Origin: Acidobacteriota bacterium
Lineage (GTDB): Bacteria; Acidobacteriota; JAAYUB01
Assembly (NCBI GenBank): GCA_029565065.1
Contig: JAKQOW010000131.1
Location: 6,901 to 70,900, forward strand
DNA length: 64,000 bases
Direction: 5' to 3'
Shown here: positions 45,638 through 59,236 of the stretch, in pieces
How the letters are laid out: each line of letters opens with the position of its first letter
How positions within the stretch are numbered: the first letter of the stretch is position 1
Made by a program: the position numbers and the translations under genes
Notes under the pieces: generated by a model
Told to the model about the DNA's origin: nothing
The model's input: the letters and a program-made list of their open reading frames with translations, nothing else
Database searches by the model: none

Positions 45638-45747
45638 GAGGCGCTGGACGGCCGGCAAAGAAAATCACCAAAGGGGCTGGTGATTTTGAAACGTCTGACG
45701 GATAATTGACTCTATTTCTTGGACCGAATCTATCGGGAGGAACATCC

Positions 45748-46506
45748 ATGCGTGGAAAGTTGATCGTCGTCACCTGCCTGATCGCCGCTCTCACCCTGAC
45801 GCTGGCCGCTGCCGGTTTCTGGGAGAAGAAACCGTATACCCAGTGGTCGGAGAAGGATGCGCGCAAGATGCTGGAGAAGTCACCGTGGTGTTACGAGTTC
45901 AACTGGGGGCGGCAGAGCAATATCGGTTCGGACGTGACCGGACCGTCGATCGGTTCAGTGCCCAGCCCGACCAGCACCCCGGCCGATGACAGCCGGGGCG
46001 TCACCGACGCCGAACGGGAATTCATCACCATCGTGCGGGTCATGCTGTTCTCCTCCCGGCCCATCCGCCAGGCGTACGCCACCCTCATCGCCAAGGGTGA
46101 CAAGGCCCGGCTGGAAAAACTGAAGGATTTCGCCGAACGCGATTTCGGCGACGAGATCGTCATCGCCTGGGTGATCGATTCCAAGCCGAAGGGCGCGACC
46201 TCGGTCTTCGACCTGGACCGCCAGCTCCGCGCCCTGGCGGTGGGCGAATTGGCCAATGATACCTTCATCGCCAGCAGCAGCGGCAAAAAGGTGTACATCA
46301 AGGATTTCATCCCGCCGACGAGCGACGGCACCGGCGCCAAGTTCGTCTTTCCGCGGACGATGCCCGACGGCACGCCGTTCCTCACCGCCGCCGACAAGAG
46401 TTTCCGCTTCCAGACGCGGAAGTTCAAGATGAAGGATGACGCGGTTGCGGTGGACGCCACCTTCAAGGTGGAGGACCTCCAACTGGCCGGTCAGCTCGAG
46501 TATTAA
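45748..46506 (+). CDS. Secreted protein of unknown function, paralog A of a tandem pair
   Basis: It has a GGGAGG RBS and a signal peptide. Conserved blocks YWEKKPYTQWSEKDARKML, TIVRVMLFSSRP, KDFAERDFGDEIVIAWV and GTGAKFVFPR are present. It is about 65-70% identical to the next gene. Confidence 0.7.
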   Translation: MRGKLIVVTCLIAALTLTLAAAGFWEKKPYTQWSEKDARKMLEKSPWCYEFNWGRQSNIGSDVTGPSIGSVPSPTSTPADDSRGVTDAEREFITIVRVMLFSSRPIRQAYATLIAKGDKARLEKLKDFAERDFGDEIVIAWVIDSKPKGATSVFDLDRQLRALAVGELANDTFIASSSGKKVYIKDFIPPTSDGTGAKFVFPRTMPDGTPFLTAADKSFRFQTRKFKMKDDAVAVDATFKVEDLQLAGQLEY

Positions 46507-46731
46507 GCCTTCGGTACGCATCCGCAGATCGCATTCGAGCATTCAACGCCATCGGTGTCGGGCGAGTGTCCCGGCGCCGGTGGCGCTTTGGTCTGCCGAC
46601 CGGCTACGACGCCTTCGGCGACAACCTGAGGTTTCTTGAATCCGCGCGTCACCGGGAGACGTATAATGCATCTTGACCATTGGTGGGAACCGCGCCGAGC
46701 GGTTCAATTGCCCAAAGGAGGAACAAGCGTC

Positions 46732-47499
46732 ATGCGCCTGAGACTATTTATGGGGCTGATCGGACTCATCGCTCTGGCCGCCGCAACGCTGTCGGCCGCG
46801 GATTACTGGGAGAAGAAACCGTACGCGAAGTGGTCCGAGAAAGAAGCCCGTAAGATGATCATGCAATCGCCGTGGTGCGTCGAGTTCAGCTGGAGCAGCA
46901 CCGGCTCGAGCGGCGACAGCCTCACCCAGGATGCGACGGCCTATGAGCCGTCTTCGCCGGTGGGAACGGCGACGAGCCGGGGCGCCACCGACACCGTGGG
47001 CAGCGAGCGGGAAATTCTCACCATCGTCCGGGTCATGCTGTTCTCGTCGCGGCCCGTCCGCTCGGCGGTCGCCGTGCTCGCCGCGAAGGGGGATGCCGGC
47101 CGGATCGAGCGGCTGAAGGATTTCGCCGAGCGCGACTTCGGCGACGAGATCGTTGTCGCCTGGGTGCTGGATTCCAAGCCCAAGGGCGCCACGTCGGTCG
47201 CCGACCTGGACCGCCAGCTCCGCGCCCTGGCGGTGGGCGAGCTGGCCAACGAGACCTTCCTGGCCACCAGCAGCGGGAAAAAGGTGTTCCTCAAGGACTA
47301 CATCCCGCCCACGCCGGACGGCACGGGTGCCAAGTTTGTCTTCCCGCGCTTCCTGCCGGACGGCACGCCCCTGATCACCGCCGCGGACAAGACTCTGCGC
47401 TTCCAGACGAAAAAGTTCCAGATGCGCGATGACGACATCTCCGTGGATGCCACGTTCAAACTGGACAAGATGATCTTCAACGGCCAGTTGGACTACTAA
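46732..47499 (+). CDS. Secreted protein of unknown function, paralog B of a tandem pair
   Basis: It has an AAAGGAGG RBS and a signal peptide. The blocks are colinear with paralog A (YWEKKPYAKWSEKEARKMI ... GTGAKFVFPR...). Confidence 0.7.
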   Translation: MRLRLFMGLIGLIALAAATLSAADYWEKKPYAKWSEKEARKMIMQSPWCVEFSWSSTGSSGDSLTQDATAYEPSSPVGTATSRGATDTVGSEREILTIVRVMLFSSRPVRSAVAVLAAKGDAGRIERLKDFAERDFGDEIVVAWVLDSKPKGATSVADLDRQLRALAVGELANETFLATSSGKKVFLKDYIPPTPDGTGAKFVFPRFLPDGTPLITAADKTLRFQTKKFQMRDDDISVDATFKLDKMIFNGQLDY

Positions 47500-47526
47500 G
47501 CCGATCACGCAGACTGCTGATCATTG

Positions 47527-47568
47527 TCGGAAATCCGGCGGCCGGCTGAGACCCTACAGCCGGCCGCC
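47527..47568 (+). terminator. Rho-independent terminator
   Basis: The inverted repeat CCGGCGGCCGGCTG-loop-CAGCCGGCCGCCGG is followed by TTGTTTG. It lies 28 nt after the paralog B stop, between convergent genes. Confidence 0.55.
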
Positions 47569-47584
47569 GGTTGTTTGTGGACCG

Positions 47585-49303
47585 CTACATTTTCTCCAAC
47601 AGCCGTTCCACTTCTTTGAACACGGCGGAACCCGCCTGTTCCAATTCCGGCCTCAGGACCGCTCGGGCGTATTGAACGGCGCGCGCCGCGTCGTCGGACA
47701 GCACACCAAGCAGGTAGGCGATTTTTCCTTTCAGCCCGTGGATCGTGTTGAAGACGACCTCGCTGTGGAAGAGCAGGGGACGCGCGCACAGGATGTCCAC
47801 CTCGTTGGACCGCAGGAGCATGTCCGCCCGCAGGCGCTCCACCGCGTCGGCCGGGGGATTTCGCTGGGCGATGACGGGTTGCAGCACCACCCGGACGGCC
47901 TGCAGCACCTCCTGAGTCCGGCGGAGATGCCGCAGGCATTCCGCCCGGTGCAGGCTGAATTCCCGCTCGTCGGCCGGCGGCGGCTCCTTGGCTTCCTGCT
48001 GACCGTCCAGCTTGAAGATGGCGCGCAGGTGCTGGGTGGTCAGCGGACGATCACCGAACATGGCGTGCAGGCTGGACAGCACCATCAGGAGTTCACGCGC
48101 GTTGCCCGGCCAGGCATAGCCCCGCAGCTCGTTCAGGATGTCGTCCGGCAGCGCGCCCGTCGGATTGCGGGTGATGCGCTGCCAGAAATGCTGGGCCAGT
48201 CGGGGGACGTCGTCGAGATGACGCCGCAGAGCGGGCGTGCGGATGAGCATGCCCCGGAGGCGGTAGTACAGGTCTTCCCGGAACTCGCCGCGCTGGACCA
48301 TGCCGAACAGGTCGCGGTTCGTCGCCGCCAGCACGCGGACATCCAACTGGACGGGCTCCCGGGCGCCCAGGGGCAGAATGGCCTTGTCGTCCAGCACCCG
48401 CAGGATCTTGGCCTGTTGCGGCAGGGGGAGTTCGGCGACCTCGTCCAGAAAGATGGTGCCGTGATTGGCCGCCTCCCAGAGGCCGATCCGGTCAGCCTGG
48501 GCGTCGGTGAACGCGCCCTTCTTGTACCCGAAAAACTCGGACTCCAGCAAATTCAGCGGAATGGCGCCGCAGTTGACGGGCACGAAGCGGCTTTTTCCGC
48601 GCCGGCTCAGGCTGTGAATCTCCTGGGCGACGATGTTCTTGCCGGTGCCGGTGTCGCCGACGATGAGCACGGCGCATTCGGCCCGGGCCGCCTGGATGAT
48701 GAGCTGCCGGACCAGCTCGGCCTCCATGGATTGCCCGACGAATTTGGAGTCGAGCACCCTGGCCTCGGCATGGTAGCCGATGAGTTGGATCAGGGATCCG
48801 TCGCCGGCCGTCTCGGACTCTGTCTCCGGAGCGGTCGGAGCCGGAACGGCGGCTCCCGCGGCGCCCGCCGCGGGGGCGGCGGTCTCGCCGCCCGCTGGGT
48901 CGGGCCTGGCCATCGTCCACAAGCTGTCGAACAAATCCGGCGGGATGCCCACGATGGCGCGCAAGTGCGTGCTGCCGGAGCCGGTGTGTTTAAGGAAATC
49001 GCAGACGCTGCGCTGCAACTGACCGGTTGAACGGTAAACGCCTTCGACAAGCGGAATCTTGCCGGCCGGGCCGCCCGTGAGGTAGGTCTTCAATCCCTTA
49101 TGGACGTTCTTGATGCCCCGATCCACCACCAGATCGACCATGGTGCGGAAACCGGCCAGATCCGCGTTGTCGACCAGGTAGATCGCAGCCTGGGGCGGTT
49201 TGGGGACTTTTTCCAAATCCTGTGTCCGGTTACGTGGCAGCGCGCACCGGAATGGGCCTTCAGGCGGTTTGCCCGTCAGGTACTTCAACGCACGAGCAGT
49301 CAT
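47585..49303 (-). CDS. Sigma-54-dependent transcriptional activator (bEBP AAA+ core) with unassigned N-terminal domain and no recognisable C-terminal Fis-type HTH
   Basis: The central domain has Walker A GDTGTGKN, GAFTGA-type KGAFTDA, Walker B IFLDEV, the arginine fingers and sensor II. The 150-aa N-terminus and 170-aa C-terminus are not recognisable by eye. It is divergent from the sigma-54 promoter operon. Confidence 0.85.
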   Translation of the reverse strand: MTARALKYLTGKPPEGPFRCALPRNRTQDLEKVPKPPQAAIYLVDNADLAGFRTMVDLVVDRGIKNVHKGLKTYLTGGPAGKIPLVEGVYRSTGQLQRSVCDFLKHTGSGSTHLRAIVGIPPDLFDSLWTMARPDPAGGETAAPAAGAAGAAVPAPTAPETESETAGDGSLIQLIGYHAEARVLDSKFVGQSMEAELVRQLIIQAARAECAVLIVGDTGTGKNIVAQEIHSLSRRGKSRFVPVNCGAIPLNLLESEFFGYKKGAFTDAQADRIGLWEAANHGTIFLDEVAELPLPQQAKILRVLDDKAILPLGAREPVQLDVRVLAATNRDLFGMVQRGEFREDLYYRLRGMLIRTPALRRHLDDVPRLAQHFWQRITRNPTGALPDDILNELRGYAWPGNARELLMVLSSLHAMFGDRPLTTQHLRAIFKLDGQQEAKEPPPADEREFSLHRAECLRHLRRTQEVLQAVRVVLQPVIAQRNPPADAVERLRADMLLRSNEVDILCARPLLFHSEVVFNTIHGLKGKIAYLLGVLSDDAARAVQYARAVLRPELEQAGSAVFKEVERLLEKM

Positions 49304-49590
49304 GGGGCACCTCGTTGAGTTGATGATCGATTGTACCTGCGATGTTTGTCCAACTCAACATAATATTGCAAATTAATCGGTGAGTTGACTAACGGTTGAG
49401 TAGTATGGAAATCATAATGCAAATATTATAAATAACATGCGTTTGTAATCGGAAGAGAAGCCAATGAATTTTGAGTAAAAAATTGAGTTATGGGTCTGTT
49501 TCTCAACCATTCGGGCCAATTGAATGCCTAAATATCAATCTGTTCGGTTGAGAACTTTGTAACAAAAACAAAAATAAGAATTTAGTAATT

Positions 49591-49606
49591 TGGCATGCTC
49601 TGTGCA
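49591..49606 (+). promoter_or_regulatory. Sigma-54 (-24/-12) promoter TGGCATG-N4-GTGCAT
   Basis: GG and GC are spaced exactly as in the consensus TGGCACG-N4-TTGCA. It lies about 65 nt upstream of the ATG at 49670, in a 365-nt AT-rich intergenic region carrying multiple GAGTTGA/TCAACTC inverted repeats (candidate UAS). Confidence 0.55.
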
Positions 49607-49669
49607 TTCCCCAGGTTCAAAGCCGGCGATAAATGAAACAGGAACCGGCCGAACGCGAGGTGCACGAAC

Positions 49670-51916
49670 ATGGCCAAACTCAATCTCAATGGCGTGGAAT
49701 TCTGGAGCGGCAGCACAGTCCATGACACCGTGCGCCAGTTGGCCGGTCTCTGCGAGCAGGTGGTCCATGCGCCCATCCCCATCGCGCCGGGCGGCGACAG
49801 TTTCACGATGCCGTGCGATCCGGCGATGAAACGCCGGGGCATCCTGGGCATTGAGGGAAGATACAAGCCCGATGACGACATCGTGGAAATCGTCATTCTT
49901 CTGGTCGAGGGGCCGGCCCAGGCCCGAAGCGGCGTGTCGGCGGTGTTTCAGAAACTGGCCGCGCTGTCGGATCGGGTGCACTGTCTGGAGCCCGAGATCG
50001 ACAACGACCGCGTCGCACTGCGGATGCTGCTCAGCGTCAAGGCCTCGATGTTGTCGTTGAGTCGGCAGGAGAAGTTCATTGACGAGTTGACGAAGCTGGA
50101 CGACCTGGCCCGCTTGCTCCAGGAGGAGATCCCGTCTGACAAGACGGACCAGGAGCTGGAGGCGGCCTACCGGAAGGTGCGCGAGGTCGTCGAGCCGGTG
50201 CGGCCGCTGGCACAGGGCGAGGCGGATCTGGAACCGGCTCACGTGGCGTGGGCCCGCGAGATTCTGGATTACCTGGGTGGCGCCGCGCCCGTCGCCGTCG
50301 CGGCGCCGTCGCTGGCGCTCACGGATTACGCGCAGGCGTTGCTGGCCCGGGTGGCGATGGGCACGGGGGGAAGTCTCGGGCGGCTGGCGGTGCCTTCCGT
50401 CAACACGCAGGGTCTGGTGGAGTTGGTGCGCCGCGCGCCGGGCTTCGTGGTGGTGCCGGTGGAGAGCATCAGTCTCGGCGCCAGCCGCTACGAACTGGGG
50501 AATGAGGTCCGCGCCCTGCTGGCGACCCTGGTGGCAGGGGGGAGGTCCCCGATCTTTACGGGGACCTATGAGGAGCTCCAGGGGGTGTTCCACGGGGGGC
50601 AGGGCGCGGCCTCGGACCCGTTGATGCCGGTGGTGCGGCACATCCCGAATGTGGCGCTGCCGGCGCTGGCCGAGGTGGCGGTCCAGGTGGCCAGCCGCCC
50701 GCACGGCGGCCTGCCGCCGGCCCGACGGAAGGAGCTGACCCGATGGGTGTTGGCGGCCCTCGACGGGCGGAGCGACTCCCAGCAGCAGCGGATCCTGCCG
50801 CTGGTGGCGCGCAAGGTGGTCACCGATTATTTCGCCGGGCGCTACCTCGGCCCCGATGCAGCCAACGGGTTCGCCGACCGCTCCGCCGCATTGAGTGAGA
50901 CGTTTGCCGGTCTATGCGTCCGCCCGCGGGCGATGCGGACGGCGGAAGTCCAGGCGGCGTGGGTGCGGACGCTTGCGTCGCCGGAGCTGCTGGCCACCTT
51001 CCGCGAACACCTGCTGGCTCAGGACCGGGCGCTCGAGGCGCTCAGCCGGCGGCTGACCATGGAAGTGCTGACGCGGCCGCTGCATCAGCCCCTCCGCTAT
51101 TGCGCCCAGGGAACGCCCGGCACGGGCAAGTCGGAGAGCGCCCAGCTCCTGGCCCAGGTGCTGGACGTGCCGTTCGTGGTCATCGACGCGGCGAGCATGT
51201 CCGACGCCTACACCGTCACCAGCCAGCTGCTGGGGTCCAGCCGGGGGATCGTGAACTCCTACCAACCCGGCCGGCTGGAACAGGTGGCCAAGCACCACCG
51301 TGGCGCCGTGGTGGAGATCTGCGACATCGACCATGCGCCGCCGCCGGTGCAGTCGGCCCTGGCGGCGCTCTGCTTCCAGGTGCTGGAAAACGGCGAGGCG
51401 CAGAGCTCGGCCGGCGGGATGTTCTCCTGCGCCAACCTCATCTTCGCCTTCACGATGAACCTGCCGGGGGGCATGGATGAGGCGGTCCGCCGCGACGGCA
51501 TCGGCTACAACAACGCGCCCACGGCCCGGACGGTGAAGAACAAGATCGTGAACGAGATCAAGGGCATGCTCAGCGGCGCCTTCCTGAGCCGGATCGGCAC
51601 GCCCATCCTGTTCGAACCGCTCGACGGCGATGCGCTGGCGGCGATCGTGGAGCGCGCCGTGGCCGAGGCGGTGCGCGCCGCCGCCGAGCGCCTGGGCCGA
51701 CCGGTACCGGCGGTGGCCGTCGGTGCGGGGGTGGGCCGGGCGGTGCTGGCCACGCTCGAGGCCAGCGTCATCGCCTTCGGCGCCCGCGCCATCCTGGAGC
51801 ACGGCCGCGCCCTGGCGGCGGAAGCGGTGCTCCGCTGGGAAGGCGGGGCCGCCGCGGACCAGCCGGTGCGCGTCGAGGCGCGCGGCACCGGCGAGCTGGA
51901 CATTCTGACCGATTGA
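49670..51916 (+). CDS. Diverged ClpA/ClpB-family AAA+ protein: degenerate D1-like region plus C-terminal AAA_2 (ClpB D2-like) module with atypical Walker B
   Basis: The C-terminus has Walker A GTPGTGKSE. The segment ...LGSSRGIVNSYQPGRLEQVAKHHRGAVVEICDIDHAPPPVQSALAALCFQVLENGEAQSSAGGMFSCANLIFAFTMN is colinear with ClpB D2 (...[68 protein letters not shown]), but DE becomes CD/DI. A central region resembles ClpB D1 without Walker A. Confidence 0.8.
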   Translation: MAKLNLNGVEFWSGSTVHDTVRQLAGLCEQVVHAPIPIAPGGDSFTMPCDPAMKRRGILGIEGRYKPDDDIVEIVILLVEGPAQARSGVSAVFQKLAALSDRVHCLEPEIDNDRVALRMLLSVKASMLSLSRQEKFIDELTKLDDLARLLQEEIPSDKTDQELEAAYRKVREVVEPVRPLAQGEADLEPAHVAWAREILDYLGGAAPVAVAAPSLALTDYAQALLARVAMGTGGSLGRLAVPSVNTQGLVELVRRAPGFVVVPVESISLGASRYELGNEVRALLATLVAGGRSPIFTGTYEELQGVFHGGQGAASDPLMPVVRHIPNVALPALAEVAVQVASRPHGGLPPARRKELTRWVLAALDGRSDSQQQRILPLVARKVVTDYFAGRYLGPDAANGFADRSAALSETFAGLCVRPRAMRTAEVQAAWVRTLASPELLATFREHLLAQDRALEALSRRLTMEVLTRPLHQPLRYCAQGTPGTGKSESAQLLAQVLDVPFVVIDAASMSDAYTVTSQLLGSSRGIVNSYQPGRLEQVAKHHRGAVVEICDIDHAPPPVQSALAALCFQVLENGEAQSSAGGMFSCANLIFAFTMNLPGGMDEAVRRDGIGYNNAPTARTVKNKIVNEIKGMLSGAFLSRIGTPILFEPLDGDALAAIVERAVAEAVRAAAERLGRPVPAVAVGAGVGRAVLATLEASVIAFGARAILEHGRALAAEAVLRWEGGAAADQPVRVEARGTGELDILTD

Positions 51917-51925
51917 GGAGGAATC

Positions 51926-52939
51926 ATGGCTGGCAACGTTTACAGCGTCTGCGATCCGGAGCAGTACCGGAAGGCGGGGCCCACCGATCTGGTGGAGCTG
52001 CTGCCGCCGCCGGGGGGCAATCCGCTGTACCTGCAGAAATGGCTGGTGGAGACTCTCGTGTTCGCCATCGTCCACCATGAATTCGTGCACCTGTCGGGGC
52101 CCACCGGGAGCGCCAAGAGCTCGCTCCTGGAGGCGCTCTACACAGTTCCGGAGAACTTCCGGGGGGTGTGCGACGGCCTGGGTTGCGCGTCGCGGCCCCT
52201 GAAGCTGTTCCCCATCGAGATGGCGACCTTCGAGGCGCCGGGCGAGCTGTACCAGCGCCGGGCGCTGAAAGACGGCACGACCTACGACGAGCCGAGCCGG
52301 CTGGTGGCCGCTCTGGCGGCAGCCGCCCGGTGCGCCGGTTCGGCGTACCCGCTGATCTGGCTGCGCGAGATCGGACGAGTGCACTCGTCCAGCGTCCAGG
52401 GCGGCTTGCTCAATCTGATGACGCGGGCCGAGATCGTGCTGCCGGACGGGACGCACTTTCCGGGGCAGGGCATCGCCTGGGTGGCCGACAGCAACTATCA
52501 GGCCGAGCAGAGCGCCACCCATACCCTGGTCACCCTGGACGACGCGCTGAAGCGGCGGTTCACCATCAATCTGACGCTGGACTACCTCACGGCCGAGCAG
52601 GAGGTCCAGGTGCTGGAGCACATTTTCAACGGCAACGGCGGCGCCCCGGTGCCCGCCGAGCTCATCGTGAAGGTGGTGCAGCTGGGCAACGTCGTCCGGC
52701 GCCACCGCAGCGAGGGGAACCTGCAGACGCTGACGCCGCCCACCATCTACGGCTACATGGCCTTCCTCCGGACGGCCCGGGCGCTGCCGCATCTGAGCTT
52801 GCAGCAGGTGGCGCTGGCCACGCTGCTCGGCAACGCCGGCTCCGAGGACCGCAAGCACGTGGCCGGTGTGTTCAATGAGGTGTTCGGCCTGCAGACCGAG
52901 GAGGAGGAAGACCCGACGATGGTGGGGAACCTGTTCTGA
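51926..52939 (+). CDS. MoxR/CbbQ/NorQ-like AAA+ ATPase (AAA_5) with variant Walker B
   Basis: Walker A is GPTGSAKSS. The sensor/Walker B region LIWLREIGRVHSSSVQGGLLNLMTRAEIVLPDG parallels MoxR's [27 protein letters not shown], but DE is replaced by RE. It is 337 aa. Confidence 0.8.
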   Translation: MAGNVYSVCDPEQYRKAGPTDLVELLPPPGGNPLYLQKWLVETLVFAIVHHEFVHLSGPTGSAKSSLLEALYTVPENFRGVCDGLGCASRPLKLFPIEMATFEAPGELYQRRALKDGTTYDEPSRLVAALAAAARCAGSAYPLIWLREIGRVHSSSVQGGLLNLMTRAEIVLPDGTHFPGQGIAWVADSNYQAEQSATHTLVTLDDALKRRFTINLTLDYLTAEQEVQVLEHIFNGNGGAPVPAELIVKVVQLGNVVRRHRSEGNLQTLTPPTIYGYMAFLRTARALPHLSLQQVALATLLGNAGSEDRKHVAGVFNEVFGLQTEEEEDPTMVGNLF

Positions 52940-52972
52940 TTGTCCGGGAGTGCACGGGATTGGGGAGGATCC

Positions 52973-55093
52973 ATGAAACCGAAACGAAAGACGGCCAGGA
53001 CGGCGACGGAACGGACGGGTTATTCGTTCGCGCTTCGCTCGCGCCGGAACAAGTCCGATTGGGCCGGCATCGGCATCGCTGACGCGTTCAAGCAGAACAT
53101 CGACTACTTCCACCGGTCCCAGGCCCAGCGGCTCTTCTACCGCCAGCTCAAGAAGACGGTCCGCGCGGTGGCCAAGCTGGACGGCACCGAGGCCCCGCAC
53201 CTGTTGCAACCGCGGGTCAAACCGCAGCTCTCGCCCTGCTACTCCAGCTATCCGGCGGGGCTGGCGGTGTACGCGGCCATCGGCCTGACGGCGTTTCTGG
53301 AATTCAAGGCCCGGATCTCGGACAGCCGGTTCCTGTCGTATCTGAACACCCAGCTCGGCGTGCAGATGGCGGACAGCGACGTCCGGGCCGATCCCGAGCT
53401 GGCCGAGCTCACTGCCCACAGCGTGGCCAACTGGATGCACAGCCGGCTGCTCATCGAGGACCTGGCCCGGCGGGCGGCGCTGTCCGCCATCGAGGTGTAC
53501 CGCCTGTTCGCCGCGGCCCAGGAAGACCTCCGTTTTGCCACCGTGGACGACATCATCCGCGCGGTGATCCTCTACGGCGACGTCCTGTGCGAGCCGTGGC
53601 ATCTGAACCTGCATCCGCTGACCGCCCGGATCCTCCGGGATCTCATTGTGGCCAGCGCGCCGTTCTACGAACGCCTGCCCGAGGTGCCGGACCGGGACTT
53701 GCTGGAGATGGGCGCCGCCTGGTCCTGGCGGCTGATGGCCGTTCTGCTGCGCTACCTGCCGCCGCCCGGCCAGCCAGAGGAGAAACAGCCCAAGGAGGCG
53801 CGGAAAGGGCGGAATCGGCTGATGGAACTGCTGGGCGCCTCCATGCCCGCCGACGAAAGCATCCGCGGCGACAGCGAGTTGGCCCCGTTCGACGGTCCCG
53901 TGCCGCCGGTCGTCAACCGGCCGGAGAATCCCCTCGACTGGCTCATGAACCAGTTGTCGGGCGGGACGGGACGCGACCGCATCCGCGACGCCGATAAGCT
54001 GGCGACGGTCGAGGATGGGATCTATAAAACCCTGGAGGAATTTCAAGCGGCGCTGGGCGGCGCGGCGGGCCAGTCCGGCAACTGGGAGGACATGCGGTCC
54101 GATCTGCTGGAGAACTCGCTTCGCGCGATCCCGTTCGCGGCCGGACCCATCGAGGGGAACCCGGCCGACGGGCATGAGGTCAAGGTGTCGATGTACGGCG
54201 ACGAGCGCGCGATGGGGGAGCTGTTCGACCGCCCCGTGGCGCCGTCGGACGACGTGGCGGCATGTCACAGCCTGGTGGAGGATGCGGCGCCCCTGACCGC
54301 AACCCTGCGCCAGAACCTCTATCCGAACATCGAGCAGCGGCCGGAGATCCAGCGCCTGCGCTGCAGCGGCGGGCTGGACGGCGCGCGCCTGCCGCTGGCG
54401 GAGTTTTCCGAGACGGTCTTCCGGCGCTACCGGATCCGCGAGGTGGCCGATCCGCGGGGATCGCCGGTGCTGGTGATCGCCTGCGACGGCTCCGGCTCAC
54501 TCAACGAGAAGCAGATGCGGATGGTCAAGCTGTTGTCGGCTGCCTATCTGCAGTCCACCGCCCGGAGCAGTATCCAGGTGCTCGCCGCCCTCTACCACAG
54601 CGGCGACATCCGGCCGGGCGTTTCGGGGCCGCTGGTCCAGTGGATGTACCATCCGCGCAAGTCCATCGCCCGGAGCCGCCAGGACGCCGTGCGGAGCGTC
54701 GTCACGTTGCCCGACACCGGTACCGGCGTGCAGAGCGATGCGCTGTCCATCGCGTTCATCATGGACGAGGCTCGCCGGATTGCACGCGGCCACATGATCT
54801 ACCTGGTGCTCATCACCGACACCAGCTGGAACCGCAGTTTCAACCGGTCCGAAACCGGCGCCGAGGAGGTTCGCGGCTATTTCGAGGACCTCTATGAACG
54901 CTTCCCGGGCCAGGTGCACACGACTCTGGTGGCGTTGGGCGTGGCGGCGCCGACGGGCTTCGAGGACCTGCTCAACGCGGTCATCGGAGTCACCCACGAG
55001 GAATTGTCCGACAGCGCCGCGGTGGCCGAGAAAGTCGGCGTATACGTCGCCCGCTGCATTCGCGAACGCACCCGGCTCATCGCCCGGGCCTGA
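52973..55093 (+). CDS. Large VWA-domain protein (CbbO/NorD-like partner of the MoxR-type ATPase); N-terminal about 480 aa unassigned
   Basis: The C-terminal VWA domain has the MIDAS motif VLVIACDGSGS and downstream T/D ligand positions. It has a GGAGGA RBS before the ATG at 52973. It lies directly downstream of the AAA_5 ATPase, as in CbbQO/NorQD pairs. Confidence 0.75.
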   Translation: MKPKRKTARTATERTGYSFALRSRRNKSDWAGIGIADAFKQNIDYFHRSQAQRLFYRQLKKTVRAVAKLDGTEAPHLLQPRVKPQLSPCYSSYPAGLAVYAAIGLTAFLEFKARISDSRFLSYLNTQLGVQMADSDVRADPELAELTAHSVANWMHSRLLIEDLARRAALSAIEVYRLFAAAQEDLRFATVDDIIRAVILYGDVLCEPWHLNLHPLTARILRDLIVASAPFYERLPEVPDRDLLEMGAAWSWRLMAVLLRYLPPPGQPEEKQPKEARKGRNRLMELLGASMPADESIRGDSELAPFDGPVPPVVNRPENPLDWLMNQLSGGTGRDRIRDADKLATVEDGIYKTLEEFQAALGGAAGQSGNWEDMRSDLLENSLRAIPFAAGPIEGNPADGHEVKVSMYGDERAMGELFDRPVAPSDDVAACHSLVEDAAPLTATLRQNLYPNIEQRPEIQRLRCSGGLDGARLPLAEFSETVFRRYRIREVADPRGSPVLVIACDGSGSLNEKQMRMVKLLSAAYLQSTARSSIQVLAALYHSGDIRPGVSGPLVQWMYHPRKSIARSRQDAVRSVVTLPDTGTGVQSDALSIAFIMDEARRIARGHMIYLVLITDTSWNRSFNRSETGAEEVRGYFEDLYERFPGQVHTTLVALGVAAPTGFEDLLNAVIGVTHEELSDSAAVAEKVGVYVARCIRERTRLIARA

Positions 55094-55105
55094 CAGGAGG
55101 AAGCC

Positions 55106-56221
55106 ATGGGCAACCGCACCACGACCACCGACACGCTGACGCTGCCGAAACCGGCAGGCGGCTGGTCATCGACGTTCGACTATGGCACCGGCGACTGGTG
55201 GAGCCGCCGGCCGGAGGTGGATCGCCGCAAGGCATTGGCGCCCGTTCTGAATCAGCTCCAGCGGCTGGACGCCCAGCGCCTCCGGCTGGAGCGGGAAGGG
55301 GGGACGGTGAAGGATCTGGCCGTCCTGACCCGCATCCTGAGCGAGCCGCTGCGCGTCGAGGGCCACTACGGCCCCGCGACCTGCTCATTGCGGGATCCGC
55401 GCGCGCTGCGCACGGCGCTGCTGGATGTCGACTACGATCTGCACCACGATGTGCGGCAGCTGCCCGACCTGCTGCCGGTGTACTACGTGAGCCGGACGCG
55501 CCGGGACTACTGGGGCGAGTACAGCCTGGTGGTGGAGGATTTTCACCTGAGCCCCGGCTACCCGCTTCAGGACGAGCGGTTCGTGCGCCTGATGGACGTC
55601 GGCCACGAGGTATACTTTCTGCGGCTGGCGCACCTGCGGGACGCCGCACGGGCCATGCTGGGGGGCGCCGGCTCCGGCGACGGGGCGGTGGACGCCCTGT
55701 TGTACGACCTGGGGCGGCACGTTTTCCAGGCCGCCTGGCATGAGGACCAGCGGCTGGGCATTCTGGTGGCTGATCATTTCCGCCTGACGGCGTTCCGGCA
55801 GGCCATCGAGCTGCTTTACCTGTGCCTGAGCGGCGAGCTGTGCGAACTGCGGCACGCCATCACGCCGGATATGCTGCGGTTTTTCGTCGAGGCCTACGAG
55901 CAGCCCGCGATCCGCCGCTTCCTGGAACGGCTGCACGACCTGGATGGCGCCATGATCACCGATCTGCCCCGGCAGGGCCGGGTGCTCTACAAGCGACTGG
56001 GACACGCGTTCAGCCGGTGCCTCGGCACCGAGGTGCTGTGGGGGTTCGGCCGGCGGATGATCCCGCTCTGGAAGGTGGTCTATGGCAACCTGACCCGGTT
56101 GGAGGCGGTCGGCCGGCAGTTGCGGGCCGATCCGCGGGTGATCACCGCGTGCGGCCGGCTGGAGAAAGAAGCCGAAGCAGTCATTGATGAACTGGCGGGA
56201 GGCGGAACGTCAGCGCGGTGA
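55106..56221 (+). CDS. Hypothetical protein, last gene of the sigma-54 AAA+/VWA operon
   Basis: The 371-aa ORF has an AGGAGG-like RBS (CAGGAGGAAGCC ATG) and coding-like GC3. No family is recognisable. Confidence 0.6.
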   Translation: MGNRTTTTDTLTLPKPAGGWSSTFDYGTGDWWSRRPEVDRRKALAPVLNQLQRLDAQRLRLEREGGTVKDLAVLTRILSEPLRVEGHYGPATCSLRDPRALRTALLDVDYDLHHDVRQLPDLLPVYYVSRTRRDYWGEYSLVVEDFHLSPGYPLQDERFVRLMDVGHEVYFLRLAHLRDAARAMLGGAGSGDGAVDALLYDLGRHVFQAAWHEDQRLGILVADHFRLTAFRQAIELLYLCLSGELCELRHAITPDMLRFFVEAYEQPAIRRFLERLHDLDGAMITDLPRQGRVLYKRLGHAFSRCLGTEVLWGFGRRMIPLWKVVYGNLTRLEAVGRQLRADPRVITACGRLEKEAEAVIDELAGGGTSAR

Positions 56222-56319
56222 GCGGGCTCGCCAACGCACTCAGAGCACGAAGCCCAGTTGAGCAATGGGAGCTAACGACAAGTAACCATACGATGTAGCA
56301 GGCGAAATCGAAAAGTATC

Positions 56320-58137
56320 TCAATCGGCCGATGGCCGGTTGAGGCGGATGATTTTGAAACCGGCGCCGGCGAGAAAACGGGGGAGCTGCCGCACCGGCTC
56401 CCGATCCTGGTCGCGCACCGGTTCGGTGAGCGCCTCCCACGGCACCAGGTAGGGTGAGATCTTCCGGTCCACGTCCTTGGCGGGACCCGGGCGCCAGCCG
56501 GCGCGGCGGCGCTCGTCCACCCACCGGTCATGCTCCAGGCGGGCCAGACGCTCCACCTCGTCGGCGGTGAACGCGAAGAGCGATTCGTCCCAGTCCGTGA
56601 GCGGCGCCAGCGCGCAGCCCAGCTCGCGCAGCTTGACGCCGATGTGGGCGGCCTGGTCGCGGTTGGAGTCGCGCAAATGTTCCGGCAGCTCGTCCCAGGG
56701 CACCATGGCCGGGTTGGTCGCCGGCGTCTCGCCGCGCTCCCGCTGATGCCGGCAGTAGTCGGCATGGATGGCCCGGGCCAGGGCCTCGTGGGTGCCGGCC
56801 AGGATCTGCTCGGGGCGGCAAGCCTGGTCCAGCAGGCTGAAGGCCTGGATGGCCGGCGGGGCGCCGGGCGCGGCCTCGTCGCCGCGCAACAGCGTGGCCA
56901 GCCCCGCGTCCCCCGTCATCCGGACCACCACGGGTATGCCCAGGGTTCGCGTGCGGGGCTGGATGGCCAGTGCCGCCGCCAGGCCCAGGGCGTCGTTGTC
57001 GAGACAGATGAACACCGCAGTCGCGCCATCCTGCGCCGGAAGATAATCGCCGCGGTGGAATTCGGGCGACTCCACGTCTATGTCCAGGGCGGTGAGACGG
57101 CAGGCCTGGGCCAGGCGGGGATAGCGGTGGCAGAGCGACGCCACCTTGGCGGCGGCGATCCGGTCGATCACGGTCACATGGAATTCGCCGTCGGCACCCG
57201 CGTCGCGCCATCCGCGCGCCGCCTGGACGAGCAGGCTCTCGCCCATGCGCCCCAGGCCCACCAGCGTGAGGTGCGGGGCCGGGAGCGGGCGGCCCTCCGG
57301 CCCGGTAGTGGCCGGATGGAGCGACAGCCACGAGCGGGCGCCGATGTCGAAGACGTTGAAGAATTCCAGGCGGTACGGGTCCCGGTGCCGGCGCTCCAGC
57401 TCCTGTTCCACGAGGAGGCGGCAGAGCTGCGGGTCCGTGATGTGGACCACCGCCTGCAGCGGCTGGCCCCGCCTCCATCGGGCGAGTTCCCGGGCGTGCA
57501 CCGCCACCTCGGCGTTGGCCCCGTCGTCGCCGCAGACGGCGACGACACAGGCGGCCTCGCCCAGCCGCGCCTTGCGCAGCATCTCGACATCGGTGGCGTC
57601 GCCCGGCAGCACGACGACTCCCAGGTCGCGGCACTGGGCGATGTGGTCGTTCCCCTCGTCGCGTTCGATGGCGACCACCCGCCGGCCCCCGGCGCGCAGT
57701 TCCCGCGCCAGGCGCAGGCCCTTCCGGCCCAGCCCGCAGATGACCACGTGGCTGCGCACGAAGCGCATCCGGAACAACTGCAGCTGCTCGCGGAACACCA
57801 GGGCGAAGGCTTTCACCGCGGCGATGGCGGCGATGCCGGGCGCGAGCAGTCGGGCCACCTCCAGTTCCCAGCCCACCGCCGGGCCGTAGACCGAGCCTGA
57901 CTCCAGGGTGAAGAGCTGCAGGGCCAGGTACAGGATGTCCCAAAACGAACGCGACTGGCCCGTGGCGGCACAGTAGTTCCGGAAACCGACGATGCCGAGC
58001 CCGATGGACGCGAGTGCCAGCGCGCCGATGATCAGCCACTGGTGGTCCTGCAGCGCGCGCAGGGCCCGTTTCCCGATGCTCTGCCCGTTTCCGCTCCGCG
58101 AAACGCCGTGGCCGGATGCCGTGTGGTCCATGGACAT
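56320..58137 (-). CDS. Membrane-anchored protein with tandem TrkA-N/RCK (NAD-binding) domains and a C-terminal RyR (ryanodine-receptor-like) domain
   Basis: It has two N-terminal TM helices and Rossmann motifs VVICGLGRKGLRLAREL and LTLVGLGRMGESLL. The C-terminal block NPAMVPWDELPEHLRDSNRDQAAHIGVKLRELGCAL resembles the bacterial RyR-domain signature (W..LPE...SNRDQA.HI..KL). Confidence 0.65.
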   Translation of the reverse strand: MSMDHTASGHGVSRSGNGQSIGKRALRALQDHQWLIIGALALASIGLGIVGFRNYCAATGQSRSFWDILYLALQLFTLESGSVYGPAVGWELEVARLLAPGIAAIAAVKAFALVFREQLQLFRMRFVRSHVVICGLGRKGLRLARELRAGGRRVVAIERDEGNDHIAQCRDLGVVVLPGDATDVEMLRKARLGEAACVVAVCGDDGANAEVAVHARELARWRRGQPLQAVVHITDPQLCRLLVEQELERRHRDPYRLEFFNVFDIGARSWLSLHPATTGPEGRPLPAPHLTLVGLGRMGESLLVQAARGWRDAGADGEFHVTVIDRIAAAKVASLCHRYPRLAQACRLTALDIDVESPEFHRGDYLPAQDGATAVFICLDNDALGLAAALAIQPRTRTLGIPVVVRMTGDAGLATLLRGDEAAPGAPPAIQAFSLLDQACRPEQILAGTHEALARAIHADYCRHQRERGETPATNPAMVPWDELPEHLRDSNRDQAAHIGVKLRELGCALAPLTDWDESLFAFTADEVERLARLEHDRWVDERRRAGWRPGPAKDVDRKISPYLVPWEALTEPVRDQDREPVRQLPRFLAGAGFKIIRLNRPSAD

Positions 58138-58407
58138 TCCCCGACAGTCTGATTGATCCTGGGCACCGTCAATCTAATCCACCGGCCGTTCAAAGTCAAA
58201 CCGGCGCTTCTGATTTTCCGTGAGTGTCGTCAATCGGTCCAAATCACACCAGACTTGCCGGCGGCCCGATTGCCTGCGGACACACACCGCGCAACATTGG
58301 CGCGTCACAACCGATAAGAATCGGTAGAACGGATGGACCGACGATGTTCGGCAGACCCTTGGCATCGGCCGGCCGGTGCTGGTACAATCCGAAGCACGGA
58401 GTGATCC

Positions 58408-59073: not shown

Positions 59074-59236
59074 GCCGCAACTACCGTACGCCGCATTCGA
59101 CGAATGCGGCCCGGCGGCAAACGGAAACAGGTAACGGCAGCTGAGGTCAGCGCCGTGACACCTCGTCGGGCTCCGGGCGCGCGTTCATCGAACGCGCGGT
59201 AAGGATGTCCAGTACGAGACAGCTGATGAAAACCGC

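What the first reader, a model, noticed from the sequence alone, without database searches (positions are those of the whole stretch)
47585..56221. Sigma-54 regulated operon: diverged ClpB-like AAA+ protein, MoxR-like ATPase, large VWA protein and an unknown protein, with a divergent atypical activator
A bEBP gene on the minus strand sits divergently from a 365-nt AT-rich intergenic region. That region carries a near-consensus -24/-12 promoter (TGGCATG-N4-GTGCAT) and multiple GAGTTGA/TCAACTC inverted repeats. Four co-directional, tightly spaced genes follow: a 748-aa protein whose C-terminal half is colinear with ClpB D2 (AAA_2) and whose middle resembles a Walker-A-less D1; a 337-aa AAA_5 MoxR/CbbQ-like ATPase; a 717-aa protein ending in a VWA/MIDAS domain (DGSGS); and a 371-aa unknown. 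MoxR+VWA pairs are known as metallo-cofactor insertion/remodelling chaperones (CbbQO, NorQD, CoxDE) and as cores of NTP-dependent conflict systems. The addition of a Clp-family-like remodeller and sigma-54 control is not a combination I recognise as described. The N-terminal 480 aa of the VWA protein and the 371-aa protein have no recognisable family.
Basis: partly seen in the sequence, partly recalled or inferred. Interest (0 to 1): 0.85.

Follow-up and report, generated by a model that had tools for sequence, protein, structure and literature searches.

The report
Sigma-54-switched Clp/MoxR/VWA four-gene cassette
A rare, undescribed five-gene module (a dedicated sigma-54 activator plus four co-transcribed proteins, two from unknown families) recurs intact in about 40 uncultured bacteria from many phyla, often beside nucleotide-based immune signalling genes, so it is probably an inducible protein-remodelling arm of a defence or stress response.

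Summary
All five ORFs, the 366-nt AT-rich intergenic region, the -24/-12 element (49591-49606) and the GTTGAG repeats are there.

The four genes are strictly syntenic in 38-42 genome loci across at least eight phyla. The activator, the promoter position and the GTTGAG enhancer motif are conserved too.

- **A** has a ClpA/ClpC-type D2 ring, not a ClpB-type one. It carries an [ILVM]-G-[FY] tripeptide at the ClpP-docking position. The proposed degenerate D1 is not statistically supported.
- **B** is a MoxR/CobS-class ATPase.
- **C** ends in a midasin/NorD-type MIDAS VWA domain.
- **D** gives a confident model with no known fold, and belongs to an isolated family of about 260 clusters.

No Pfam, PADLOC, PHROG or NCBIfam model and no paper found describes the set. 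Flanking genes vary. They are enriched in RyR-domain proteins (15 of 42 loci; one fused to the activator), TIR, NACHT, NUDIX and RelA/SpoT-SLOG proteins.

Best reading: an inducible AAA+ remodelling or degradation module linked to nucleotide immune signalling. Its function is inferred, not shown. I class it as a new variant of the MoxR-VWA kind; interest 0.72.

The parts
47585..49303 (-). Dedicated sigma-54 activator (bEBP), 572 aa. It has a novel N-terminal alpha/beta sensor-like domain (~1-150) and a low-complexity Ala/Pro linker. The AAA+ sigma-54 interaction domain spans 189-354, with Walker A GDTGTGKN at 216-223, the GAFTDA loop at 263-268 and FLDE at 285-288, followed by a lid domain. 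A novel helical C-terminal domain (~440-572, motif HRxECLRHLRR) takes the place of the usual Fis-type HTH.
   Evidence: Pfam scores are Sigma54_activat 4e-61 and AAA_lid_14 5e-11, with no HTH_8. The N- and C-terminal domains of 10 family members give no Pfam hit even at E<=10. Full-length homologues, aligning from N- to C-terminus, lie divergent to gene A in about 17 loci.
49312..49555 (.). Putative enhancer (UAS) region. Five GTTGAG/CTCAAC cores lie at 49314(+), 49354(-), 49395(+), 49502(-) and 49547(+). They form inverted pairs spaced 40 and 45 nt start to start.
   Evidence: There are 5 copies against 0.15 expected. The cores are conserved islands in the window/L005/L006 alignment while the spacers diverge. 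The same hexamer is the top repeated word in the bEBP-A intergenic regions of 15 independent loci: 27 copies against 2.8 +/- 1.7 expected.
49591..49606 (+). Sigma-54 -24/-12 promoter element TGGCATgctctGTGCA (GG-N10-GC spacing). It lies about 66 nt upstream of the gene A start codon. A GAGGTG ribosome-binding site sits 8 nt before the ATG.
   Evidence: Sequence is and the scan. The match is exact in close relatives L005 and L006 apart from spacer bases. Elements in an equivalent position occur in about 20 of 32 distant loci. The pattern occurs twice in the window.
49670..51916 (+). Gene A, 748 aa. An N-terminal region of about 440 aa has no detectable family, followed by a ClpA/ClpC-type D2 AAA+ module with its C-terminal small domain (440-740).
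- Walker A: GTPGTGKS 481-488.
- Walker B: the 'DE' pair is replaced by C551-D552.
- Pore loop: RGIV 525-528, with no aromatic residue.
- Sensor 1: N597.
- Arg finger: R641.
- Sensor 2: GAR 704-706.
- GIGY 610-613 aligns with the ClpA IGL and ClpC VGF ClpP-docking tripeptides.
   Evidence: Pfam AAA_2 scores 1e-13 and NCBIfam's best hit is ClpA. The PDB profile search gives ClpA/ClpC at 3e-19. hhalign to ClpB D2 gives 98.9% probability, and ClpB lacks the loop. D1 similarity is not supported.
51926..52939 (+). Gene B, 337 aa: a MoxR/CobS-class AAA+ ATPase.
- Walker A: GPTGSAKS 58-65.
- Walker B: Asp is replaced by Arg (IWLREIGR 144-151).
- Sensor 1: DSN 188-190.
- Arg finger: KRRF 209-212.
- A conserved acidic C-terminal tail ends in -LF.
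It is the most conserved protein of the set, at 57-70% identity across phyla.
   Evidence: AAA_5 scores 21.9 bits. The profile hits PDB CobS at 9.6e-9 and MoxR 2r44 at 1.3e-6. The alignment is and the synteny.
52940..55093 (+). Gene C, 717 aa from the TTG at 52940, or more probably 706 aa from the ATG at 52973. In 706-aa numbering it has a conserved helical N-terminal domain (~30-265), a disordered linker (267-375), then a beta element and a VWA domain (400-705). The MIDAS motif is intact: D505-G-S507-G-S509, with GTGxQSD at 583-589 and D616.
55106..56221 (+). Gene D, 371 aa, from a novel family. A disordered N-terminal tail rich in Tyr, Gly, Ser, Asp and Trp (~1-35) precedes an alpha/beta sub-domain (40-173) and a helical bundle (175-364). 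Conserved polar residues include R117, R130, D145, R158, G166-H167-E168, R178, W211-H212-x-D214-Q215, E235 and R249.
56320..58137 (-). Probable accessory gene, outside the given coordinates. It encodes a 605-aa protein with a TrkA_N (NAD-binding Rossmann) domain at 131-220 and a C-terminal RyR (R12) domain at 528-596. It is convergent with D across a 98-nt gap. The His/Trp pair (EHDRW 535-539) and an Asp (QDRE 577-580) that may correspond to ligand-contact residues of the phage RyR-domain protein RyDEP are present (motif comparison only).
   Evidence: Pfam scores are TrkA_N 3.5e-21 and RyR 2.8e-16. A full-length homologue lies directly after D in L044, on the same strand. RyR-domain proteins occur in 15 of 42 loci. 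RyR ligand residues are described in PMC13232231.

Best explanation
This is a self-contained, horizontally spread module of one regulator and four effector proteins.

**Shown**
- The bEBP gene, a sigma-54 promoter and GTTGAG repeats are conserved together upstream of A-B-C-D.
- A has a ClpA/ClpC-type D2 AAA+ module.
- B is a MoxR/CobS-class AAA+ protein.
- C carries a NorD/midasin-type MIDAS VWA domain.
- D is a confidently folded protein with no known relatives.

**Inferred mechanism**
1. The activator sits on the GTTGAG repeats through its novel C-terminal domain.
2. When its novel N-terminal domain receives a signal, it uses ATP to open the sigma-54 promoter and switches on A-D.
3. B forms a ring that docks C's MIDAS domain, as NorQ does with NorD. 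C's conserved N-terminal domain then selects a partner.
4. A, whose loop matches the ClpP-docking tripeptide of ClpA and ClpC, unfolds that partner or feeds it to the cell's ClpP.
5. D has an enzyme-like cluster of conserved His, Asp, Glu and Arg residues and a disordered Tyr/Gly-rich tail that could serve as a handle. It is either the effector that is activated or the client that is processed.

The trigger is most probably a nucleotide signal of the ADP-ribose or alarmone type. The module is repeatedly wired to RyR, SLOG, TIR, NUDIX and RelA/SpoT genes. I therefore read it as an inducible arm of an anti-phage or conflict response, analogous in logic to RtcR-controlled rtcBA.
For: **Synteny.** A-B-C-D is present in the same order in 38-42 loci from Acidobacteriota, Desulfobacterota, Nitrospirota, Brocadiia, Lentisphaerota, Kiritimatiellae, Hydrogenedentota, Pseudomonadales and Myxococcales, while the flanks differ. 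One locus has the order B-C-D-A.

**Regulation.** A full-length bEBP family sits divergent to A. The -24/-12 element lies at a fixed distance. GTTGAG occurs 27 times against 2.8 expected across 15 loci, and footprinting supports it.

**Protein assignments.**

**ClpP-type loop.** [ILVM]-G-[FY] has an invariant Gly and aligns to ClpA IGL and ClpC VGF. ClpB lacks it.

**Immune-type context.**
- RyR-domain proteins occur in 15 of 42 loci, and in 11 of the 19 loci with full 10-kb flanks.
- The commonest Pfam families among 96 ORFs within 2.5 kb are TIR_2 (6), TPR_2, RyR and AAA_16 (5 each) and NACHT (4), with RelA_SpoT at 3.
- RelA_SpoT-(SLOG)-RyR proteins are found in 7 loci, with a NUDIX gene beside most of them.
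- In L023, L030 and L037 the order bEBP-NUDIX-RelA/SpoT-RyR lies on one strand.
- In L024 the activator homologue carries a RyR domain in place of the C-terminal domain.

**RyR function.** RyR (PF02026) domains bind or cleave the 2'/3' cADPR immune signals (PMC13232231).

**Distribution.** The distribution is patchy, and B is 57-70% identical across phyla, which suggests horizontal transfer.
Against: - No function has been tested.
- PADLOC gives no specific hit.
- The cassette was not found in IMG/VR viral contigs or PLSDB plasmids.
- About half of the fully flanked loci have no RyR, TIR or STAND neighbour. This window has only the TrkA_N-RyR gene, with otherwise ordinary neighbours (ProRS, an AraC-type regulator, an M48 peptidase).
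- The core proteins are conserved and show little domain shuffling, which is unusual for conflict systems.
- Both ATPases have non-canonical Walker B motifs, and in most members A lacks the aromatic pore-loop residue. Classical unfolding is therefore uncertain.
- No clpP gene is linked to the cassette.
- The DNA-binding role of the bEBP C-terminal domain and the ligand of its N-terminal domain are pure inference.
- L020 and L022 have SorC-type regulators in place of a bEBP.
Confidence: 0.45

Rival explanations
1. B-C is a cofactor-insertion or enzyme-activation chaperone set, like CobS-CobT, NorQ-NorD, CbbQ-CbbO or CoxD-CoxE. In this reading D is a novel metallo-enzyme or cofactor-dependent enzyme, and B-C matures or reactivates it with A's help. 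The operon would be switched on by a metabolic signal through sigma-54.
Against: No metabolic genes are conserved around the cassette, and the flanks vary between loci. D's family has no relatives outside the cassette and no similarity to any enzyme family. The recurrent neighbours are immune or signalling types (TIR, NACHT, RyR, NUDIX, RelA/SpoT), not metabolic. A Clp-type partner is not part of any known activase set.
Confidence: 0.2
2. The cassette is a damage-repair or proteotoxic-stress response, comparable to PspF-psp, RtcR-rtcBA or the ClpK/ClpG heat-resistance loci. The activator would sense cellular damage, possibly damage caused by neighbouring toxin-like RelA/SpoT or TIR effectors. 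It would then induce a disaggregase/chaperone set that protects the cell rather than attacking an invader.
For: The activator's AAA+ core scores best against RtcR/PspF-type models in PADLOC, at 7e-83. A is related to Clp disaggregases and unfoldases. MoxR proteins are described as stress chaperones (PMC11432383, listed). The operon sits beside potential self-toxic enzymes whose damage would need repair.
Against: In most family members A lacks Clp_N, an M-domain, a detectable D1 and the aromatic pore-loop residue expected of a disaggregase. The system is rare and patchy rather than a general stress regulon. D and the N-terminal domain of C have no chaperone-like features.
Confidence: 0.2
3. The five genes are chance neighbours, and the promoter and repeats are chance matches, so there is no functional unit.
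For: On its own, the sigma-54 pattern match in the window is not significant: 10 of 100 shuffles give two or more matches.
Against: The genes are strictly co-linear in about 40 loci across phyla with unrelated flanks. Promoter position and repeat motif are conserved. Gene spacing is tight, and gene B is split into translationally coupled halves in some lineages.
Confidence: 0.02

Closest known systems
NorQ-NorD, CbbQ-CbbO and CobS-CobT (MoxR-class AAA+ ATPase with a VWA/MIDAS partner)
   Same: The genes for a MoxR-class ATPase (B) and a large protein ending in a MIDAS-containing VWA domain (C) are adjacent. B's best solved relative is CobS, and C's VWA domain superposes best on NorD and midasin MIDAS domains. 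C also has the same layout as NorD and CbbO: an N-terminal domain, a linker and a C-terminal VWA domain.
   Different: No known client (NOR, Rubisco or CobN) is present. B's Walker B Asp is replaced by Arg. There are two extra obligatory partners, A and D. The operon has a dedicated sigma-54 activator. Pfam models for VWA and AAA_5 do not reach threshold.
vWA-MoxR ternary conflict systems (Kaur, Burroughs, Iyer, Aravind 2020, eLife, PMC7159879)
   Same: Both have a MoxR + vWA core with additional obligatory components. Both show a patchy, HGT-like distribution and lie near STAND NTPases, TIR and nucleotide-signalling genes.
   Different: None of the defining third components of the subsystems I saw excerpted in that paper (VMAP, FtsH, beta-propeller) is present. 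No fused effector or EAD domains were detected. The bpMoxR Pfam model scores only 14.5 bits, E 0.018. A term search of that paper's main text found no occurrence of 'sigma-54' or 'RyR' and no mention of a Clp-type AAA+ partner.
ClpA/ClpC class Hsp100 unfoldases
   Same: The D2 AAA+ module and its small domain align over about 300 residues. The Walker A, sensor 1, Arg finger and sensor 2 motifs are present. A [ILVM]-G-[FY] tripeptide lies at the ClpP-docking position.
   Different: There is no Clp_N domain and no detectable D1. The Walker B 'DE' is replaced by (S/C)-D. The pore-loop Tyr is replaced by Ile in most members. The 440-aa N-terminal region is unique to this family.
RtcR-rtcBA (a ligand-sensing bEBP controlling a divergent sigma-54 operon in a defence or damage context)
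   Same: An AAA+ sigma-54 activator with a non-receiver N-terminal sensor domain is transcribed divergently from the operon it controls. PADLOC's RtcR_PspF2 model is the best hit for the AAA+ core. The link to nucleotide-type signals is similar in logic.
   Different: The N-terminal domain is not a recognisable CARF domain and the C-terminal domain is not an HTH. The target genes are unrelated to RNA repair.
Thoeris-type TIR signalling and phage RyR-domain proteins (RyDEP; PMC13232231)
   Same: Related loci carry TIR proteins next to SLOG- and RyR-domain proteins. RyR domains are shown to bind or cleave 2'/3' cADPR.
   Different: The window itself has no TIR gene. The RyR domains here are bacterial and fused to TrkA_N, RelA/SpoT-SLOG, AAA or bEBP modules. 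The preprint on the expanded set of Thoeris types does not mention RyR, MoxR or NUDIX in its main text, and its only 'sigma' hits are not about sigma factors.

Membership tests
Bacterial enhancer-binding proteins (sigma-54 activators) | AAA+ sigma-54 interaction domain with a GAFTGA loop | tested here: met
   Sigma54_activat scores 4.3e-61 over residues 189-354. The loop is GAFTDA at 263-268, with Walker A at 216-223 and FLDE at 285-288.
Bacterial enhancer-binding proteins (sigma-54 activators) | C-terminal Fis-type helix-turn-helix DNA-binding domain | tested here: not met
   There is no HTH_8 or other HTH hit. The C-terminal 130 aa of the family members tested give only two sub-threshold, unrelated Pfam hits at E<=10. 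Some genuine bEBPs also lack this domain, so it is typical rather than obligatory.
Bacterial enhancer-binding proteins (sigma-54 activators) | Cognate -24/-12 promoter with upstream repeats next to the gene | tested here: met
   TGGCAT-N5-GTGCA lies at 49591-49606. It is conserved in position across loci. GTTGAG repeats are enriched.
Clp/Hsp100 class I (ClpA, ClpB, ClpC) | D2 AAA+ module (AAA_2) with its C-terminal small domain | tested here: met
   AAA_2 scores 1e-13. The PDB profile search gives 3e-19. hhalign gives 98.9% probability over residues 440-740.
Clp/Hsp100 class I (ClpA, ClpB, ClpC) | A first AAA+ module (D1) and a Clp_N domain | tested here: inconclusive
   There is no Clp_N or AAA hit in residues 1-440. 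HMMER gives -3.7 bits. hhalign against D1 scores 15.3, versus 12.3 for the reversed control.
Clp/Hsp100 class I (ClpA, ClpB, ClpC) | Canonical Walker B hhhhDE and an aromatic pore-loop residue (GYVG) in D2 | tested here: not met
   The Walker B region reads VVEICDIDHA, with C551-D552 where DE is expected. The pore loop is RGIV at 525-528. The family consensus is SD and GIVG.
ClpP-partner unfoldases (ClpA, ClpC, ClpX) | [LIV]-G-[FL] ClpP-docking tripeptide in the D2 surface loop | tested here: met
   GIGY 610-613 fits this, with Gly invariant and Phe/Tyr nearly invariant. It aligns to ClpA IGL and ClpC VGF, and ClpB lacks the loop. Binding to ClpP itself is not testable with these tools.
MoxR-class AAA+ ATPases | Sequence membership (AAA_5 or MoxR models, or solved MoxR-class relatives) | tested here: met
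   AAA_5 scores 21.9 bits, just under the 22-bit cut-off. The family profile hits CobS at 9.6e-9 and the MoxR protein 2r44 at 1.3e-6.
MoxR-class AAA+ ATPases | Canonical Walker B (hhhhDE) | tested here: not met
   The motif is IWLRE at 144-148. Arg replaces Asp in most members, while Glu148 is invariant.
MoxR-class AAA+ ATPases | Adjacent gene for a VWA/MIDAS partner | tested here: met
   Gene C follows B within 0-33 nt in the window and directly after B in all 42 loci.
VWA/MIDAS domain proteins | VWA fold with a DxSxS...T...D metal-ion-dependent adhesion site | tested here: met
vWA-MoxR ternary conflict systems (Kaur et al. 2020) | A defining third component (VMAP, FtsH, beta-propeller) and effector or EAD domains | tested here: not met
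   No such Pfam domains occur in A-D. bpMoxR scores 14.5 bits, E 0.018, against a 27-bit cut-off. A term search of the paper's main text found no Clp-type partner and no 'sigma-54'.
Known anti-phage defence systems (PADLOC-DB v2) | A significant match of the components to a system's models | tested here: not met
   Only generic AAA+ matches appear: RtcR/PspF for the bEBP core, and DolB, PDC-M37B and IetA at 5e-6 or weaker for A. C and D give no hit.
Thoeris-like TIR signalling systems | A TIR signal producer together with an effector that has a signal-binding domain | tested here: not met
   No TIR is annotated within the 10 kb either side of gene A covered by the contig annotation. TIR proteins do occur beside RyR or SLOG proteins in related loci L017, L031, L042, L014 and L045.

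The most novel reading that the evidence does not exclude
This would be a previously unrecognised type of bacterial immune or stress circuit. In it a nucleotide second messenger, made or sensed by TIR, RelA/SpoT-SLOG-RyR, NUDIX or TrkA_N-RyR proteins, activates a dedicated sigma-54 enhancer-binding protein. That activator then transcribes a ClpC-like/MoxR/VWA machine, which in turn activates or destroys a novel-fold effector (D). This would be the first transcriptional, sigma-54-dependent output arm for ADPR-type immune signalling. It would also be the first cellular role for bacterial RyR domains.
Probability: 0.25. Interest if true: 0.88.

Novelty: new variant of a known kind. Interest (0 to 1): 0.72.

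Why it matters
MoxR-VWA pairs are known either as client-specific cofactor chaperones or as cores of predicted conflict systems. Neither kind is known to work with a Clp-type partner or to have its own sigma-54 switch.

The module contains one whole protein family and three domains with no recognisable relatives:
- D, whose confident model matches no solved fold;
- the N-terminal domain of C;
- the sensor and putative DNA-binding domains of the activator.

The recurrent link to RyR, SLOG, TIR, NUDIX and RelA/SpoT genes, including a RyR fusion to the activator, gives a concrete hypothesis: bacterial RyR domains may couple nucleotide immune signals to transcription. That hypothesis is timely, because RyR domains were only recently shown to bind cADPR signals.

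The cassette is present in one cultured bacterium, Desulfosarcina ovata, so the hypothesis can be tested experimentally.

Tried and rejected
**Degenerate D1 in A.** I tested this with an HMMER profile against the PDB, and with hhalign against E. coli ClpA and ClpB, both full length and D1 only, with a reversed control. There was no support.

**Relatives of D.**
- A profile search against the PDB gave nothing below E 0.05.
- A search of 1.84 billion cluster representatives found only the family itself and no fusions.
- AFDB Foldseek was unavailable.

**bEBP C-terminal domain as a divergent RyR domain.** hhalign rejected this, at 0.3% probability.

**Pfam on the isolated bEBP N- and C-terminal domains.** This gave nothing.

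**Viral contigs and plasmids.** There were no relatives.

**Rfam on 45000-60000.** There were no RNA families.

**ORFs directly downstream of D in ten loci.** No common family emerged.

**N-terminal 440 aa of A as a search query.** It returned only 8 full-length family members.

**Literature searches.** Searches combining MoxR, VWA, sigma-54, Clp, RyR, SLOG and defence terms found no description of this set.

Full report
**1. What is in the window**

The window comes from an uncultured Acidobacteriota bacterium of anaerobic digesters. The same genes occur at 96-99% protein identity in MAG JAGOHA010000015 and at 87-98% in JAXGLX010000002.

| Gene | Coordinates | Length |
|---|---|---|
| bEBP | 47585-49303 (-) | 572 aa |
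| A | 49670-51916 | 748 aa |
| B | 51926-52939 | 337 aa |
| C | 52940 or 52973-55093 | 717 or 706 aa |
| D | 55106-56221 | 371 aa |

The gaps between the four plus-strand genes are 9, 0-33 and 12 nt. The 366-nt region between the bEBP gene and A is 39% GC in a genome of about 68% GC.

That region contains TGGCATgctctGTGCA at 49591-49606, with the GG-N10-GC spacing of a sigma-54 promoter. It lies about 66 nt before the ATG of A, which has a GAGGTG ribosome-binding site. The region also contains five GTTGAG/CTCAAC cores, against 0.15 expected. They are arranged as inverted pairs. Rfam finds no RNA family there.

**2. Is it more than chance?**

The promoter pattern alone is not significant in 64 kb. 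Comparative evidence settles the matter.

A search with the C family found 42 genome loci. tblastn and all-against-all clustering show that B, C and D are present in 38-42 of them and A in 38. The order is the same in all but L036, where it is B-C-D-A. Where a gene is missing, the contig usually ends there.

The hosts span Acidobacteriota, several Desulfobacterota orders, Nitrospirota, Brocadiia, Lentisphaerota/Victivallales, Kiritimatiellae, Hydrogenedentota, Pseudomonadales and Myxococcales. The flanking genes differ between loci.

A bEBP homologue aligning over its whole length, including the unusual N- and C-terminal regions, is divergent from A in about 17 loci. A -24/-12-like element lies 46-111 nt upstream of A in about 20 of 32 loci.

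In the alignment of the window with its two close relatives, the promoter and the GTTGAG cores are conserved islands in otherwise diverged DNA. Across 15 independent loci, GTTGAG/CTCAAC is the most often repeated hexamer in the bEBP-A spacer: 27 copies against 2.8 +/- 1.7 in shuffles. So regulator, enhancer motif, promoter and four structural genes form one conserved unit.

**3. The proteins**

*The activator.* It has a standard sigma-54 AAA+ core (4e-61; GAFTDA loop 263-268) and lid. It has no receiver, PAS, GAF or CARF domain and no Fis-type HTH. Its N-terminal ~150 aa form a conserved alpha/beta-patterned domain. Its C-terminal ~130 aa are helical, with the motif HRxECLRHLRR. Neither matches any Pfam model, even at E<=10.

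*Protein A.* From residue ~440 it is a ClpA/ClpC/ClpB D2 module with its small domain. Evidence: AAA_2 at 1e-13, a PDB profile match at 3e-19, and hhalign to ClpB D2 at 98.9%.
- Walker A, sensor 1 (N597), the Arg finger (R641) and sensor 2 (GAR 704-706) are conserved.
- The Walker B 'DE' is (S/C)-D.
- The pore-loop Tyr is Ile in most members.
- A surface loop carries [ILVM]-G-[FY] (GIGY 610-613, Gly invariant), exactly aligned to the IGL of ClpA and the VGF of ClpC. From established knowledge of Clp proteases, these are the ClpP-docking tripeptides. ClpB has no such loop.

A is therefore ClpA/ClpC-like rather than ClpB-like. It remains untested structurally.

*Protein B.* It belongs to the MoxR class. 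Its profile hits CobS at 1e-8 and the MoxR structure 2r44 at 1e-6. Arg replaces the Walker B Asp. A conserved acidic C-terminal tail ends in -LF.

**4. Surroundings**

Next to D in the window, and convergent with it, is a 605-aa TrkA_N + RyR-domain protein (56320-58137). A full-length homologue follows D on the same strand in L044.

An HMM of the RyR domain finds such proteins in 15 of 42 loci. That includes 11 of the 19 loci with full 10-kb flanks on both sides. Their other domains vary:

| Architecture | Loci |
|---|---|
| RelA_SpoT-(SLOG)-RyR, mostly with a NUDIX gene alongside | 7 |
| AAA-RyR | 4 |
| TrkA_N-RyR | window lineage and L044 |
| Activator homologue with a RyR domain replacing its C-terminal domain | L024 |

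In L023, L030 and L037 the order bEBP-NUDIX-RelA/SpoT-SLOG-RyR lies on one strand with short gaps.

Among 96 ORFs within 2.5 kb of the cassette in 38 loci, the most recurrent Pfam families are TIR_2 (6), TPR_2, RyR and AAA_16 (5 each) and NACHT (4), with RelA_SpoT at 3. TIR proteins sit beside the RyR proteins in L017 and L042 and directly after D in L031. TIR-STAND fusions occur in L014 and L045.

A 2026 preprint shows that phage RyR-domain (PF02026) proteins bind or cleave the Thoeris signals 2'/3' cADPR through a His/Trp/His/Asp site (PMC13232231). A matching His-x-x-Trp motif and a conserved Asp appear in the RyR domains found here. I compared these by motif only and did not align them to RyDEP.

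The cassette was not found in IMG/VR viral contigs or PLSDB plasmids. One cultured organism carries A-B-C-D: Desulfosarcina ovata subsp. sediminis. There it lies behind NACHT and HEAT-repeat genes.

**5. How it most likely works**

*Shown.* There is a conserved regulator-promoter-operon unit. A has a ClpA/C-type AAA+ module with a ClpP-type docking tripeptide. B and C form a MoxR-class AAA+ and NorD/midasin-type MIDAS pair. D is a novel folded protein. The unit is statistically associated with nucleotide-signalling and immune-type genes.

*Inferred.* The activator binds the GTTGAG repeats and, on receiving a signal, opens the sigma-54 promoter. B and C act as a NorQD-like adaptor and remodeller. 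A unfolds a target or hands it to ClpP. D is the effector or the client, and its disordered tail would be a plausible handle for an AAA+ pore or a MIDAS ligand. The signal is probably an ADPR-type or alarmone nucleotide. I put this reading at about 0.45.

*Rivals.*
- A cofactor-insertion or activase set for D as a new enzyme (0.2). The CobS and NorD similarities and D's conserved His, Glu and Asp residues favour it. The absence of metabolic neighbours counts against it.
- A damage-repair or proteostasis response of the Psp or Rtc type (0.2).
- Chance adjacency, which is refuted.

**6. Comparison with what is known, and novelty**

The parts belong to known superfamilies, and MoxR-VWA-centred conflict systems have been predicted before (PMC7159879). 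That paper's subsystems, as far as I read them, have different third components, and its main text mentions no Clp-type partner, no sigma-54 and no RyR link.

PADLOC, PHROGs, NCBIfam and Pfam do not recognise the set. The preprint on the expanded Thoeris catalogue does not mention RyR, MoxR or NUDIX in its main text.

I therefore class this as a new variant of a known kind. It contains one protein family and three domains with no recognisable relatives. Its non-canonical ATPase motifs and its rarity also deserve attention.

**7. Limits**

- No experiment bears on function.
- The AFDB fold library was unavailable.
- Neighbour ORFs in GC-rich MAGs were called by a simple longest-ORF rule.
- The enrichment of immune-type neighbours was not compared with a genome-wide background.

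Noticed in passing
L008, L009, L010, L012, L018, L021, L031, L041 (e.g. L031:8939-9954): In eight loci gene B is split at residue ~235-245, the boundary between the AAA+ core and the lid domain. The two ORFs are in different frames. The stop and start codons overlap or abut (ATGA, or TGAgATG) behind a GGAG-type ribosome-binding site. This looks like a genuine gene fission with translational coupling, not a sequencing error.
   Followed up: partly
L024:13423-14991 (-): The activator homologue in this locus has the family's N-terminal domain and sigma-54 AAA+ core, but a RyR domain (Pfam 35.3 bits) replaces the usual C-terminal domain. It lies convergent with D rather than divergent from A.
   Followed up: partly
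L023:1835-6479, L030:1830-6507, L037:1412-6585; also L009, L017, L025, L027: A recurrent module consists of an ~850-aa RelA_SpoT-(SLOG)-RyR protein and a ~146-aa NUDIX protein. A TIR protein is often nearby (L017:14169-15410, L042:16510-17664). It looks like an undescribed Thoeris-like or toxSAS-like nucleotide-signalling system in its own right.
   Followed up: partly
L036:8901-15540: The gene order is permuted to B-C-D-A in this Victivallales MAG. The same four genes are present.
   Followed up: no
L020:5358-6566, L022:2-1105; L046:1135-3738: The regulator is swapped in some loci. L020 and L022 have SorC-type (Sugar-bind, with HTH in L022) proteins upstream of A in place of a bEBP, with no good -24/-12 element. 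L046 has a bEBP with a metallo-beta-lactamase N-terminal domain.
   Followed up: no
window 3648-3663 (-): This is the only other exact match in the window to the sigma-54 pattern TGGCAY-N6-TGCW (TGGCACTTGAAATGCA). Its gene context was not examined.
   Followed up: no
window 55106-55210 (D residues 1-35) and the whole D family: The N-terminal tail of D is not conserved in sequence but keeps an unusual composition: Tyr 13%, Gly 12.6%, Ser 10.5%, Asp 8.7% and Trp 3.7%, with few aliphatic residues. It is predicted to be disordered.
   Followed up: partly
window 49323-49358 (-): Two sigma-70-like promoter matches for the activator gene overlap the first GTTGAG/CTCAAC inverted pair. This would allow autoregulation of the activator.
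   Followed up: no
window 45706-46506 (+) and 46636-47499 (+): Two ORFs just beyond the 3' end of the activator gene (on the opposite strand) have no Pfam hit. One (46636-47499) is also found in the two closely related MAGs and in no other cassette locus, so it is probably not part of the module; the other was not checked.
   Followed up: no
L009:18866-20260, L027:15001-16557, L028:7469-8815, L039:16364-17767; L009:13463-14968, L027:13281-14444, L028:4550-5701, L039:13327-14328: In a subset of Desulfobacterales-type loci the cassette is followed by an unknown 330-500-aa family and by Glyco_hydro_17-like proteins. This may be lineage synteny rather than a functional link.
   Followed up: no
L049 (Desulfosarcina ovata AP021876.1 1307257-1329416): This cultured isolate carries A-B-C-D, preceded on the same strand by NACHT (720 aa), HEAT-repeat (745 aa) and unknown (532 aa) genes, with no bEBP. 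It is a possible experimental host.
   Followed up: partly
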